Assembly: GCA_964016885.1 (NCBI GenBank) | Contig: OZ024755.1 | Span: 2,604,001-2,668,000 of the forward strand | Reading direction: 5' to 3' | Length of the DNA stretch: 64,000 nucleotides | Source: Eledone cirrhosa | Taxonomy: Eukaryota | Program-made: the position numbers and the translations under genes | In this document: piece after piece, positions 44,731 through 57,860 of the stretch | Layout of the letters: every line of letters starts with the position of its first letter | Position numbering within the stretch: position 1 is the stretch's first letter | Notes under the pieces: model-generated | What the model was told of the DNA's origin: nothing | What the model saw: the letters and a program-made list of their open reading frames with translations, nothing else | The model's database searches: none

Positions 44731-44925
44731 TAACGAAGGAGTTGTGGTAAGGAACCAGGTGGACCATAACGCACCAGAGTACTCAATACTTAGGGTAATA
44801 GAGTGGGTAATAGGAAAAAGTATGACCCCGACGGCAGAGCTCAAGCCGTTTCGACTGCTATTTCAGTCCAGAAATAGCAGTCGAAACGGCTTGAGCTCTG
44901 CCGTCGGGGTCATACTTTTTCCTAT
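44731..44925. mobile_element. Asymmetric hairpin element copy 1, in (TA)n
   Basis: 79-nt unpaired extension, then perfect 55-bp inverted arms 44810-44864 / 44871-44925 with loop agtcca. Confidence 0.9.
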
Positions 44926-45110
44926 ATATATATATATATATATATAAATGTACGTGTGTGTGTGTGTGTGTGTATGATGATGATGATGATGGGGAGGGGA
45001 GGGGGAGGGGGAGGGGGGACGTCTCATCCAGTTCCCATGTGCTCATAAAAGAGGACCACATTATCCAAGTATCCAATTCTAAAACGGTAGAGTTTGTTTG
45101 GAAGGTGCAG

Positions 45111-45490
45111 GCAGGTGACCCCGTGGTAAGGGTGTTGGACTTACGATCTTAATGTCGTGTGTTCGATTCCTGGGCTGAGCTGTGTGTTGTGTTCTTGATG
45201 AGCAAAACATTTCATTTATCACATTACTCCAGTATACTCAGCTATAATTGAGTACCAGCAATAGCTGGAGGGGGGTTAACCCTCTGATGGACTGGCGTCT
45301 TGCCCAGGTTGTGTGGAAGGATCTTGTGCTCTCAGTCTTCATGCCACAGAAGCCGGGATAAACAGCAGCTCGAGACATACTTTAACCCTGAGATGGACTG
45401 GCGTCCTGTCCAGGGGGATGTCATGTACTCTCAGTTGCCTAATGGCATGAAAATCGGGATAAGCTTAATGAACTTCCAGGCTCTTTTAGA
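45111..45490 (+). mobile_element. SINE family B variant with tandemly duplicated 3' body
   Basis: tRNA head (gttcgattcc) and CORE-like segment, then aaccct..gatggactggcgtc...cgggataa twice at ~106-bp spacing (45276, 45382). Confidence 0.8.
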
Positions 45491-45744
45491 CTTGTTTCAA
45501 CATAAATTTTACTGCTATTTTTAGCAGTTTGAACGTCTATATAGATATTCCCTTCTTGACTGGTTGTGGGTGAGTGGTTGTGTTTGAGGGTGATCACGAG
45601 TAGAGGTACTGCAGCGGACTACTAATTTAATGAGTGCAGGTGCATCTGTCAGTCTCTGTGTAACATTAAGCGAATCTTGCTCCTTCGCCGCCATTTCTAT
45701 CCACTACATCGTCAGTTCCACCTGATGCTGCTCTGTGTATATAA

Positions 45745-46170
45745 GTGTATATATGTGTATATATGTGTATATATGTGTGTGTGTGTCCATGCTTTATATC
45801 ATAAGTGTGTATATGTGTATATAAGTATGTTGTTCTGTGTGTTTATGGTTGTATATGTATATGTATGTATATGTAGATGTATGTGTGTGTATGTGTGTGT
45901 GTGTCCATGCTTTATATCATAAGTGTGTATATGTGTATATAAGTATGTTGTTCTGTGTGTTTATGGTTGTATATGTATATGAATGTGTATGTATATGTAT
46001 ATGTATGTGTGTGTACGTGTGTGTGTCCGTGCTTTATATCATAAGTGTGTATATATGTATATAAGTATGTTGTTCTGTGTGTGTATGGTTGTGTATCTAT
46101 ATGTATATGTGTGTTTGTGGTCGTGTTTTCTAGGATAAGTGTGTATATATGTATATAAGTATGTTCTGTG
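45745..46170. repeat. ~120-bp tandem repeat x3+
   Basis: gtgtcc(a/g)tgctttatatcataagtgtgtat...ataagtatgttgttctgtgtgt occurs three times. Confidence 0.9.
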
Positions 46171-46278
46171 CGTATTTGTGGTCGCGTGTGTATATGTATA
46201 TATGTGTATGTGTGTGTTGTATGCATATTTAATATATGGTAGCATATATACGATGGATTCCTGTATTCTCAGGCAGAT

Positions 46279-46580
46279 AATATAATATCTACATATATAT
46301 ATATATATATATATATGTAGATATTATATTCTACATATATATATATGTAGATATTATATTCTACATATATATATATGTACATATTATATTCTATATATAT
46401 ATATATATATGTAGATATTATATTCTACATATATATATATATATGTACATATTATAGTCTACATATATATATATATATATATATATGTAGATATTATATT
46501 CTACATATATATATATATATATATATATATATGTAGATATTATATTCTACATATATATATATACATATATTCTACATATA
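46279..46580. repeat. Palindrome-derived satellite within (TA)n
   Basis: 52-bp perfect palindrome 46279-46330, then the unit atgta(g/c)atattatattctacat about 7 times separated by (AT)n. Confidence 0.85.
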
Positions 46581-46836
46581 TATATATATATATATATATA
46601 TATATATATATATATATATATATATATACACGTGTATCTGTCTGTTCCTGTATATATGTATTTATATACTTCAATATATGTATAATATGCTTTATTGACT
46701 CTCTCTCTCTCTCTCTCATATATATATATATATATATATATATGTATATATGATATTCGTATTATATATTTGTATGTCAATAACTGTATACCTGATATAC
46801 AAATATATTTAAGTATTTACAACTCACACACTTGTC

Positions 46837-54390: not shown

Positions 54391-55034
54391 TATAGATAGA
54401 TAGATAGATAGATAGATAGATAGATAGATAGATAGATAGATAGATAGATAGATAGATAGATAGATAGATAGATATGCATATAGACACACACACAGTCACA
54501 CATATATATGTGCGTGTGTGTGTAGCTGTGTGTATGTGTGTGTAGCTGTGTGTATGTGTGTGTAGAAACCTATTAGGTTAAAGCTCAGATAATTATCTCA
54601 ATATTTTGATGGACAAATGAGGAAATGATTTTACAATAATGTTACTTCTCTCTCTCTCTCTCTTTCTCTCTCCCTTCTTTCTCTCTCTCTCTCTCTCTCC
54701 CTCTGTCTCCCCCTTCTTTCTCTCTCGTTCCCTTCTTTCTCCTGTTTTCTCTCTCTCACCATTCTCTCTCTCCTCTTTCTCTCTCACCCACCTCTCTGTC
54801 TCTCCCCTCCTTCGCCCATCTCCTCTCTTTCTCACCCTCTCTCCTCCAGCCATCTCTCTTTCTCCCCCTCTCTCCTCCACCTTTCTCTCTCTCATTCCCT
54901 CTCAAACTCTCACCCACCTCTCTCTCTCTCTCTCTCTCTCTCTCTCTCTCTCTCTCTCTCTCCATCTCTCCCTCCCTCTTCCTTTCCCTCTCTCTCCCCC
55001 TCCAGTATACTCAAGCCCTTATATATATATATAT

Positions 55035-55312
55035 ATGTAAATATGTAAGTATGTATACGCACATACATATATGTATACAGACGTACAGTAGTATGTATAT
55101 ATATACATACATGCACACATATATATATGTACGTATCGGTTTACCGAACATTTATTATAATGCTCGGTTTGTTTGTAAACATTATAATAAATGTTCGGTA
55201 AACCGATACGTACATATATATATATGTGTGCATGTATGTATATATATATATACATACTACTGTACGTCTGCATACATATATGTATTACGTATACATACTT
55301 ACATATTTACAT
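55035..55312. repeat. Inverted repeat, ~130-bp arms, 17-nt spacer
   Basis: 55035-55162 vs 55180-55312, few mismatches and indels. Confidence 0.9.
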
Positions 55313-55975
55313 TTAACTAACTGCTGTACTAAGAGTGAGAAATGAAATTTCGTTTCATTCTATTCCATTTTTATATATAGTTTCCTATTTGATTAGTCAG
55401 GATATTCTTACCAATTTCTCCTCCACTGGTGTCTACGACAATTCTGAGAAATGGTGTCACATTTCTCTGATGCTTCCATCCGAGATTACAAACTTTAACT
55501 AAATACTTTTTTACTTCTTGACTTACATATACACACACAGACACACAGACACAATCAGTCAGAGGTACATGCACACACAGACACACACAGACGAATGTAT
55601 ATGTATACACACACACACACACATACACATATATATATATATATATATATATATATATATATATATATATATATATATATAAATGCGATGTGTTTCTGTC
55701 AGTGTGTTCTAACTTAATATATACACTCGAGACCCAAATCTAAATATCTCGATGCAGATAGCATCCTATACAATGAGCAACGTTGCAGCTTTAAAGAATG
55801 GTGCTACAAGAATAGTTTAATATACCGTATACATTCAAAAGCCAGAGGAATGTGAAGAAAATATGAGATATGAATAATGACAGCTACCAGATTACGTAAG
55901 GACTCTCCCAATATACTTTATATAACACCCTTTAACCCAACAATTAAATTATACTTAATATAATTAGGATTGTAC

Positions 55976-56213
55976 AAAGTTGACACAGAGGAGACTGAGG
56001 TTAGCTGGACATGCTCACCGACATCCAGAGTTGACATTGCACTCAGTGCCCCTACATGGACACACTGGAAGAGGAAGATCAAGGTTAACGTATGTTGATG
56101 CCCTAAGGACAGACACTGGTCTGTTGGAGACGCGGGACATGGCAGCGATAATGAGGGACAGAGACCGCTGGAGAGAACTCGTTCATGGATCTCGGGAATT
56201 TTCCTGCCCTAGA
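55976..56213 (+). mobile_element. RTE-clade LINE 3' end, same family as 23190
   Basis: TQRRLRLAGHAHRHPELTLHSV..HGHTGRGRSRLTYVDALRTDTG...RDRDRWRELV. Confidence 0.92.
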
Positions 56214-56228
56214 TATTTATATATATAT

Positions 56229-56550
56229 ATAGGAAAAGGTTCAGGAACCCGACGGCAGAGCTCAAGCCGTTTCGACGGCTATATCTGGGCCTCTAAAGTC
56301 AACTTTACCCTTTCTAATCCCTGGATCGATATCTAATCTATCTGTCTTCTACTGATGGATAATTATTCTTTTTCACTCACCACTTCTCTCATATTCTCTC
56401 TGAAAAAGAGATCCCCACTATAAGACTGTTAAGGGAGTCCAGATATAGCCCTCGAAACGGCTTGAGCTCTGTCGTCGGGGTCCTGAACATTTTCCTATTA
56501 CTCTGGTGCGTTATGGTCCACCTGGTTCCTTACCACACTTCCTTCGCTAT
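56229..56550. mobile_element. Asymmetric hairpin element copy 4 (opposite orientation) with 150-nt loop
   Basis: ~60-bp arms 56229-56288 / 56439-56498 (4 mismatches) and ~50-nt extension on the right. Loop matches the reverse complement of 58053-58181. Confidence 0.88.
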
Positions 56551-57648
56551 ATATATATATATATATATATATAAATATATAATAAGGAAAATGCGATGTT
56601 CAGTGTAGAGGTTAAAAAGTCCTTTATTAATAAAGCTGTGATACATATTTCCATGACCATTGTGGCTACGTGATTGTTCAACCACGTAACCTGTCACGTG
56701 ATATCATCAAACATCATCTTTATGTAATAAGATTACGTTTCCGAGGTCAACCAATCTAAAGACAAGGGCACAGACAGAAATCATGTTTTCAAAGCTGAAG
56801 TCCGTTTCCTCATTACATTGCATATATTATACTCTTGCTTCCAATGTATATTATACTCAAAGAATGACTCTCTGCGCTGTTATTCAATGTTCTGAAATGA
56901 GGTGCCAAATCTTAAACATTTATGAATATACTGGATACAGTAATTATGTAAAGTTGACAAAGATAAACGTGTTTAGCATGTGGACAGTATGTGAAAATAA
57001 TGACTAACCCCTAAAGCTGTAAGGTTTATTTTCCCAAATATACAAATATAATGCAATAGTATTGTTTAACAATACTTCACGTTGAAACACATTACAGAAA
57101 CAAGAAATATAATAATGACAACAATAAGCCAAGATTATTGGTAATAATAGAAACTAACGTTATCTCTGTTGTTCACTCCACATGCAAAAGTAAGTCATGT
57201 AAACATAACAGAGAAATATTTTATGTGCAATATAACAGTAACGGCTTAAAGGAGAACGCGTTGGTGGAATTAAAATAATATTGTCATCTCATATGACATT
57301 CACGTCAGCATAGTTTTTGAAATAGTACCAAACAACAATATAGGAGAACAAGCGTATTTAATGATATTCCGATAAGTTTTGACAGGTCTTATAACCTTCA
57401 TAAAGTTAAGCATCCGGTAGATAAACACTATAAATGTCATCCATTAAATATAAACCGCAGAGGACAATCAAAGAGAGGTGAAAACATAGAAAGAATGAAG
57501 AAAAGGGATGGGTCCATTGTTTAATGTGGCACTAAATACAACACTAGACTCAGCCATTGACAATTAGGATCGGAAGGACAAACATATTCATATATTTACC
57601 ACTCACACACATACTATATATATATATATATATATATATATATATATA

Positions 57649-57860
57649 TAACGAAGGAAATATGGTAAGGAACCAGATGGACCATAACGCACCAAAGTAC
57701 TCAATACTTAGGGTAGTAGAGTGGGTAATAGGAACAAGTATGACCCCGACGGCAGAGCTCAAGCCGTTTCGACGGCTAATTCTGGACTCAGAAGTAGTGA
57801 GTTCAGAATTAGCCGTCGAAACGGCTTGAGCTCTGCCGTCGGGGTCATACTTGTTCCTAT
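57649..57860. mobile_element. Asymmetric hairpin element copy 3, in (TA)n
   Basis: 63-bp arms 57728-57790 / 57798-57860, one mismatch, loop gaagtag. Confidence 0.9.

What the first reader, a model, noticed from the sequence alone, without database searches (positions are those of the whole stretch)
44731..57860. (TA)n-targeting asymmetric hairpin family whose inverted arm is rebuilt in each copy
Seen: four copies (44731, 52031, 56229 reversed, 57649) share the layout (TA)n - 50-79-nt unpaired extension - arm - loop - inverted arm - (TA)n. The outer end is fixed (…ttttcctat/…tgttcctat into TA) but arm length differs (55, 43, ~60, 63 bp). Copy-private variants occur in both arms: copy 1 cgacTgcta/tagcAgtcg; copy 3 ggaaCaag/cttGttcc and gctaAttc/gaaTtagc; copy 4 gttcagga/tcctgaac. 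An ordinary MITE would inherit fixed TIRs. Established: Penelope-like elements insert with a partial inverted pseudo-LTR plus a short unpaired 3' extension, and some target microsatellites. Inference: these are ultra-truncated PLE insertions or a non-autonomous PLE-mobilised family. Each is also a near-perfect dsRNA hairpin if transcribed (potential ADAR or Dicer substrate). All four lie within 13 kb of a 64-kb window.
Basis: partly seen in the sequence, partly recalled or inferred. Interest (0 to 1): 0.75.

Follow-up and report, generated by a model that had tools for sequence, protein, structure and literature searches.

The report
Twin-armed Penelope stubs in TA repeats
These four small DNA hairpins are copies of an abundant repeat that sits between TA microsatellites as two head-to-head arms, one with a tail, and they were likely written in by a Penelope-type jumping-gene enzyme copying one RNA from two start points, a layout already described for such elements.

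Summary
The window has four insertions, each with two head-to-head arms and one tail, both ends in (TA)n. The arms pair by copy: 7 of 16 variable columns are shared by both arms of one copy, none by side.

Corrections: the variants of copies 3 and 4 were swapped, several are subfamily-level, and copies 1 and 2 have no true loop.

Public runs show a high-copy family. The tail-less arm has a nearly fixed inner end (11 of 13 listed strand-switch joints within 6 nt), while the tailed arm stops anywhere, in 7 of 13 inside the tail. That argues against a MITE and against simple fold-back. It fits two primings on one RNA with a fixed 5' end, as Penelope-like enzymes do in vitro (PMC11167929). The arms carry only the 3' half of a hammerhead motif. 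No RT/GIY-YIG partner was found and no genome is held, so membership rests on structure.

The layout is published (PMC8557442, PMC3846280). This scan noted the same layout and reading on other DNA (e1-9504305, e1-9546799, e1-8654393). New member of a known kind.

The parts
44731..44809 (-). copy 1 tail (79 nt), ending in (TA)n
44810..44864 (-). copy 1 tailed arm (55 nt), with 3' half of a hammerhead motif
44865..44925 (+). copy 1 tail-less arm (61 nt), running into (TA)n
52031..52109 (-). copy 2 tail (79 nt)
52110..52152 (-). copy 2 tailed arm (43 nt); 2-nt overlap with the other arm at the junction
52151..52209 (+). copy 2 tail-less arm (59 nt)
56229..56288 (-). copy 3 tail-less arm (60 nt), subfamily with a 2-nt insertion
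56289..56434 (+). copy 3 extension of the tailed arm; rare in the laid runs; 82% like 58053-58181 on the opposite strand
56435..56498 (+). copy 3 tailed arm (64 nt)
56499..56549 (+). copy 3 tail (51 nt; lacks 28 nt present in the other three)
57649..57727 (-). copy 4 tail (79 nt)
57728..57790 (-). copy 4 tailed arm (63 nt)
57791..57797 (.). copy 4 junction spacer (7 nt), origin unknown
57798..57860 (+). copy 4 tail-less arm (63 nt)
58053..58181 (-). older relative of copy 3's extension, without the arm

Best explanation
Each insertion is two head-to-head arms of one roughly 140-nt repeat set between TA runs, and was likely made when a Penelope-type reverse transcriptase/endonuclease nicked both strands of a (TA)n tract and primed each strand on the same RNA at a different start site. 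Shown: two fixed outer ends about 79 nt apart (A, tail-less; B, tail end), both joined to (TA)n; a nearly fixed inner end of the tail-less arm; a variable inner end of the tailed arm; arms that match within a copy. Inferred: the copy from A runs off the RNA's 5' end after about 60 nt, the copy from B stops at a variable point, and repair joins the two cDNA ends head to head (0-2 nt overlap or a few filler bases). I think the RNA is somewhat more likely the 5' start of a longer Penelope-type transcript (rest of the pseudo-LTR plus tail) than a self-contained short RNA, about 55:45. The confidence given is for the enzyme class and the twin priming, whichever template.
For: Layout: one tail and two arms in 4 of 4 copies. 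PLE papers describe an inverted 5'-truncated copy, a one-sided 30-40-bp tail and (TA)n bias (PMC8557442; PMC3846280). Enzyme: a purified PLE nicks and extends both strands and starts at two internal RNA sites whose spacing is the tail (PMC11167929). Arms by copy: 7 of 16 variable columns shared within a copy, 0 by side, two of them rare in the family. Ends: loose ends at A and B read (TA)n in thousands of reads, for example 3,977 at A in X5 and 3,684 at B in X5. Joints: 13 of 15 listed are strand switches; tail-less side 57776-57789 (11 of 13 in 57784-57789, sd 3.5 nt), tailed side 57694-57751 (sd 17.3 nt; 7 of 13 inside the tail). One search agrees: 8 of 11 listed joints are strand switches, 6 of 8 at 56435-56440; it shares runs X1 and X5, so it is not independent. 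Ribozyme trace: GAAA, a 5-bp helix III with a palindromic loop and GUC in 5 of 8 arms, 0 in 20 simulated windows, as in PLE pseudo-LTRs (PMC4209133). Longer parent: the arms begin in mid-hammerhead, and a weak AT-rich consensus recurs beyond the inner end in X1, X2 and X3.
Against: No RT or GIY-YIG was found: no relevant Pfam hit in the 100 longest of 176 complex ORFs, none among 6 candidates, and only 2 tandem-repeat artefacts. The tail is 79 nt, about twice the published 30-40. The first half of the hammerhead core is absent within 80 nt upstream in 8 of 8 arms, and Rfam gave no hammerhead on c3's sense strand or among the 150 of 191 rows shown for the region. Sequence beyond the inner end is heterogeneous (agreement 0.44-0.49), so a longer parent is at most a minority. 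In vitro the two strands did not differ in start site (PMC11167929). The joint list is partial (15 of 30 shown) and probably under-samples perfect hairpins. c2's arms are no closer to each other (3/43) than to c1's (2/43, 3/55). The laid runs hold at most 0.23 of c3's words and may be a related species.
Confidence: 0.72

Rival explanations
1. Same enzyme and twin priming, but the template is a dedicated non-coding RNA of about 140 nt (a non-autonomous PLE hitch-hiker), not the start of a long PLE transcript. This is a variant inside the best explanation, not an alternative to it.
For: Family depth on c3 is confined to 56433-56548. The longest listed contig pieces end at or before 57788 in 15 of 16 rows. 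Loose ends beyond the inner end agree only 0.44-0.49. No protein link. Non-autonomous PLE derivatives are described (PMC8557442; bioRxiv 10.64898/2026.07.22.740005).
Against: The unit starts in the middle of a hammerhead motif, and its inner end lies about 41 nt upstream of the GUC site, so it is not a ribozyme-cut end. No head-to-tail joint is among the 15 listed. No tRNA gene in 44000-60000 and no exact Pol III box pair in the window. A weak upstream consensus recurs.
Confidence: 0.3
2. One cDNA folds back on itself and self-primes, giving the hairpin; later deletions at the apex make the arms unequal.
For: Self-priming was proposed for PLE inverted junctions (PMC3846280). It explains arms matching within a copy; c4 has equal arms and a 7-nt spacer.
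Against: In 7 of 13 listed joints the tailed side stops inside the tail and shares no sequence with the inverted arm. In c1 and c2 the tail-less arm is the longer one. Apex deletions should hit both arms, yet the tail-less side is nearly fixed. Fold-back does not explain a second fixed outer end joined to TA.
Confidence: 0.1
3. A DNA-level element (MITE or fold-back TIR element at TA, or a DIRS-like derivative) whose arms are kept alike by gene conversion.
For: Short, high-copy, inverted repeats, TA at both ends; MITEs can be reduced to their TIRs (PMC8969392). DIRS elements have unequal ITRs (recalled).
Against: One arm lies 79 nt inside the end, so it is not terminal. Junctions differ in every copy. 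No column groups arms by side. c2 and c3 keep 3 and 4 uncorrected mismatches. In c1 and c2 there is no internal region to hold the internal complementary region that defines ITR-type DIRS. The arms carry a hammerhead half.
Confidence: 0.08
4. Assembly or library artefact: fold-back chimeras at TA runs.
For: The window holds other palindromes, one with 318-nt arms and no loop. TA runs are error-prone.
Against: Arms differ at up to 4 of 60 sites, some CpG-type. The same fixed ends and head-to-head joints occur in contigs and raw reads from two studies.
Confidence: 0.02

Closest known systems
Insertions of endonuclease-positive Penelope-like elements (Hydra, Neptune, Naiad, Penelope/Poseidon; PMC8557442, passages and File S1 rows seen; PMC3846280, passages seen)
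   Same: Inverted 5'-truncated copy at the 5' side, tail on one end only, (TA)n targets; Hydra-1_Obim and two octopus Naiads are listed with (TA)n preference.
   Different: No ORF at all; tail 79 rather than 30-40 nt; only half a hammerhead; tail-less arm of nearly fixed length. No sequence link: three short motifs gave 0 hits in the one supplement held.
PAc (Poseidon of Anolis carolinensis) in vitro, PMC11167929 (section 3 read)
   Same: Both strands nicked and extended; two internal start sites downstream of the hammerhead with the tail between them; AT-rich targets; ribozyme cleavage not needed.
   Different: In vitro the strands showed no difference in start site, whereas here 4 of 4 insertions use one site each. 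The paper leaves second-strand synthesis unresolved.
Metazoan non-LTR retrozymes (PMC7229834, passages seen; bioRxiv 10.64898/2026.07.22.740005, part 1 of 5 seen)
   Same: Short, non-coding, hammerhead-related, proposed to use PLE enzymes.
   Different: Retrozymes are tandem repeats with complete type I hammerheads. These copies are single head-to-head units with half a core, and no tandem joint was listed.
L1 5' inversion by twin priming (recalled; only a search listing seen)
   Same: Two primers from opposite strands on one RNA, cDNA ends joined head to head.
   Different: In L1 the internal priming site varies and a poly(A) tail is used. Here the second site is fixed, there is no poly(A), and the arms often overlap.

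Membership tests
EN+ Penelope-like element | ORF with PLE-type RT and GIY-YIG endonuclease | tested here: inconclusive
   None in the window or through the arm's open frame; no genome is held, so a partner elsewhere could not be sought.
EN+ Penelope-like element | Inverted 5'-truncated copy adjoining the direct copy head to head | tested here: met
   4 of 4 window copies; 13 of 15 listed joints.
EN+ Penelope-like element | Tail on one end only (published 30-40 bp) | tested here: met
   One tail per insertion, but 79 nt long.
EN+ Penelope-like element | Microsatellite insertion bias, (TA)n in Hydra/Naiad | tested here: met
   Both ends in (TA)n in the window and in loose ends of the laid runs.
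EN+ Penelope-like element | Type I hammerhead in the pseudo-LTR (not in Naiads) | tested here: inconclusive
   3' half present in 5 of 8 arms by a strict descriptor; 5' half absent in 8 of 8; no Rfam hit. The rest may lie upstream of the fixed end.
EN+ Penelope-like element | Partial-tandem direct pseudo-LTRs | not testable with these tools
Non-LTR retrozyme | Tandem units each with a complete type I hammerhead | tested here: not met
   No tandem in the window; no back-going joint among 15 listed; core incomplete.
Non-LTR retrozyme | Expressed as self-cleaved circular RNA | not testable with these tools
   No RNA run was available for this stretch.
MITE | Fixed terminal inverted repeats inherited as a unit | tested here: not met
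   One arm is 79 nt from the end; junction differs in each copy; arms pair by copy.
ITR-type DIRS derivative | Internal complementary region between the ITRs | tested here: not met
   Arms abut directly in c1 and c2; 7-nt spacer in c4; definition.
tRNA-derived SINE | Pol III A and B boxes near the 5' end | tested here: inconclusive
   No tRNA gene and no exact box pair; both tests are strict and would miss decayed boxes.

The most novel reading that the evidence does not exclude
The asymmetry is a record of how Penelope-type enzymes make both strands. The two nicked strands are obligatorily primed at different sites of one RNA; the inner-site cDNA always runs to the RNA's 5' end while the outer-site cDNA is cut short, so thousands of stubs map the transcription start and the order of the two primings without any RNA data.
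Probability: 0.4. Interest if true: 0.5.

Novelty: new member of a known kind. Interest (0 to 1): 0.3.

Why it matters
The layout is known, so the four copies are ordinary. What is useful is the geometry. Second-strand synthesis by Penelope-like elements is unresolved (PMC11167929 says so; PMC8557442 calls for in vitro work on inverted structures). A high-copy family with two fixed outer ends, one fixed inner end and one free inner end gives a counting test between twin priming and fold-back, and a minimal RNA for the existing in vitro assay. It also warns repeat annotators that such hairpins can be misfiled as MITEs or microRNA precursors (sub-threshold miRNA hits). The scan already holds the same reading for other families, so this adds a further case.

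Tried and rejected

Pattern scans found nothing in metagenome contigs or viral contigs. Look-ups of earlier findings by sequence and by nearby place were empty. No RNA holder was listed; this says nothing on expression.

Protein route: the sense strand of the unit has an open 47-codon frame, which is unremarkable for six frames. Searches gave nothing or two tandem-repeat proteins with inflated E-values, which I rejected. Pfam on 100 of 176 complex ORFs gave six ORFs with hits, all below cut-off and none RT or GIY-YIG.

Rfam gave only sub-threshold hits in the rows shown, mostly miRNA hairpins. The single unit does not fold better than shuffles (z from -1.1 to +0.3). The fixed inner end is not the ribozyme cut site, which lies about 41 nt away. 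There is no A-to-G bias among arm mismatches, but DNA would show editing only after re-insertion.

The pile of read ends at 57781 is likely a restriction cut at AATT in a reduced-representation library, not an element end. It suggests c4's AATT variant is common.

Local capture of c3's extension from 58053-58181 at insertion time is disfavoured: 82% identity against 93% between c3's arms. Motif searches in the supplements held for PMC8557442 and PMC13282606 gave 0 hits; consensus libraries not held there may contain this family, and Dfam and Repbase were not available. Paper searches listed no title on a fixed-length tail-less arm, but only open-licence texts were covered.
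Full report
Observation. The four copies exist at the stated places. A tail motif occurs 4 times and an arm motif 8 times in the window, against 0.32 and 0.07 by chance, so every insertion has one tail and two arms. With the tail taken as the 3' end, the arms lie head to head. 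Tail-less arms are 61, 59, 60 and 63 nt (c1, c2, c3, c4). Tailed arms are 55, 43, 64 (plus about 146 nt of other sequence) and 63 nt. Tails are 79 nt, and 51 in c3, which lacks 28 nt. In c1 and c2 the arms abut with 0 and 2 nt overlap; c4 has a 7-nt spacer. Clustering within 13 kb is marginal (P = 0.048, post hoc). The host is a microsatellite-rich genome of 33.6% GC; earlier scan notes call it octopus-type, which I did not test.

Arms by copy. Of 16 variable columns among the 8 arms, 7 (5 events) are shared by both arms of one copy and none group by side. Eight are singletons, and at one both c3 arms differ from the rest in different ways. Pairing by copy is the best of 105 pairings (0.152 against 0.180 for the next), although c2 is uninformative. 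The variants are not all private. c4's C at 57735 is common, and a TCAGGA subfamily shows in loose ends of 2,025 and 2,386 reads. c1's T is below the 5% listing limit and c3's T at 56444 is under 1% of X1 depth and 9-19% of RAD reads. Either way both arms of a copy carry the same version, which points to one template per insertion.

The family outside the window. No genome is held. A run search gave 7 runs; the best holds 0.23 of c3's words, so it may be another individual or a related species. On c3's sense strand 8,483 contigs of X1 and 14,570 reads of X5 were laid, with depth confined to 56433-56548; c3's extension is met by one contig per run. On c4's tail plus arm 21,897 contigs of X1 and 21,617 reads of X5 were laid. 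Loose ends at both outer ends read (TA)n. Of 15 joints listed (15 more not shown), 13 switch strand. Their tail-less side lies at 57776-57789, 11 of 13 within 57784-57789; their tailed side spans 57694-57751, 7 of 13 inside the tail. One search shows the same in c3's coordinates (8 of 11 listed joints switch strand, 6 of 8 at 56435-56440) but shares two runs. Perfect hairpins are probably under-sampled, so copies like c4 may be missing from these lists. Beyond the inner end the loose sequence is mixed (agreement 0.44-0.49), with a weak AT-rich consensus recurring in X1, X2 and X3.

Ribozyme trace. The sense strand carries GAAA, a 5-bp helix III closed by a palindromic loop, and GUC in 5 of 8 arms; the descriptor found 0 in 20 simulated windows and one unrelated site at 16522. 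Palindromic loop 3 is typical of PLE hammerheads (PMC4209133, parts 1-2 of 4 read). The first half of the core is missing within 80 nt upstream in 8 of 8 arms, and Rfam reports no hammerhead. The GUC site is 20 nt from outer end A and about 41 nt from the fixed inner end, so it defines neither. These copies are not predicted to self-cleave.

Mechanism. Published PLE insertions have an adjacent inverted 5'-truncated copy, a 30-40-bp tail at one end and a (TA)n bias (PMC8557442, passages; PMC3846280, passages). A purified PLE protein nicks and extends both strands, starts at two internal RNA sites downstream of the hammerhead, the tail being the sequence between them, and does not need ribozyme cleavage (PMC11167929, section 3). 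I infer that each strand of a nicked (TA)n tract primes on the same RNA, one at site A and one at site B. The A copy runs to a fixed RNA 5' end after about 60 nt, the B copy stops variably, and the ends are joined. Fold-back of one cDNA, proposed in PMC3846280, cannot give insertions whose arms do not overlap, nor a longer tail-less arm, unless later deletions are strongly one-sided. A MITE is excluded by the non-terminal arm and the changing junctions. Against my reading: no RT or endonuclease partner was found, the tail is twice the textbook length, and in vitro the strands did not differ in start site. Whether the template is the start of a long PLE transcript or a self-contained short RNA is open; I lean 55:45 to the former, because the unit begins in mid-hammerhead and some copies seem to continue upstream. 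The terms twin priming and run-off, and the reading of the inner end as the RNA start, were taken over from earlier scan notes. The fixed tail-less arm I measured myself.

Comparison and novelty. The family works like an endonuclease-positive PLE insertion. Membership is met on three structural features and untested on the protein. It fails the retrozyme definition (tandem units with complete hammerheads; PMC7229834 passages; bioRxiv 10.64898/2026.07.22.740005 part 1 of 5) and the MITE and DIRS definitions (PMC8969392 passages). PLEs are abundant in Octopus vulgaris (6.83%, 190 families; PMC13282606 part 1 of 3 and a supplement row). Short motifs did not hit the supplements held, and libraries I could not see may hold this family. 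The scan has noted the same layout many times in this genome and in another; those notes are unchecked and not independent evidence. Verdict: real, new member of a known kind, interest 0.3. The arm asymmetry is the part worth following.

Noticed in passing
window 16490-16565, minus strand: A decayed type I hammerhead-like motif of another family: CTGATGA, a stem II, GAAAC, helix III, GTC; stem I poor. A partial second copy of its 3' half lies near 16395-16415 beyond a (CATA)n tract. Fold z = -1.64.
   Followed up: partly
window 60096-60307: Unrelated AT-rich fold-back of about 105-nt arms beside a long (TA)n, followed at about 60318-60350 by TTAGGG-like repeats.
   Followed up: no
window 55063-55285 and 33482-33554: Two further unrelated hairpins next to TA-rich tracts (arms about 100 nt including microsatellite, 17-nt loop; 36 nt, 1-nt loop).
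   Followed up: no
window 52207-52842: 318-nt palindrome arms with 6 mismatches and no loop, centred on a TA run directly after copy 2; possibly an assembly fold-back.
   Followed up: no
window 55975-56229 and 23238-23505: Two copies (90% alike) of a fragment whose translation resembles the 3' end of an RTE-type LINE (resemblance recalled; no Pfam hit). Copy 3 sits in the TA run at its end; the other ends in (GATA)n.
   Followed up: partly
window 58030-58260, minus strand: Relative of copy 3's extension; its end shows a decayed GAAAC...GTC-like stretch next to a (TC)n tract, perhaps another PLE-end family.
   Followed up: partly
window 7016-7266, 9742-9985, 29803-29989, 59285-59420; 28167-28267, 42697-42800, 49098-49194, 52974-53079: Two other dispersed repeat families, SINE-like by appearance; not classified.
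   Followed up: no
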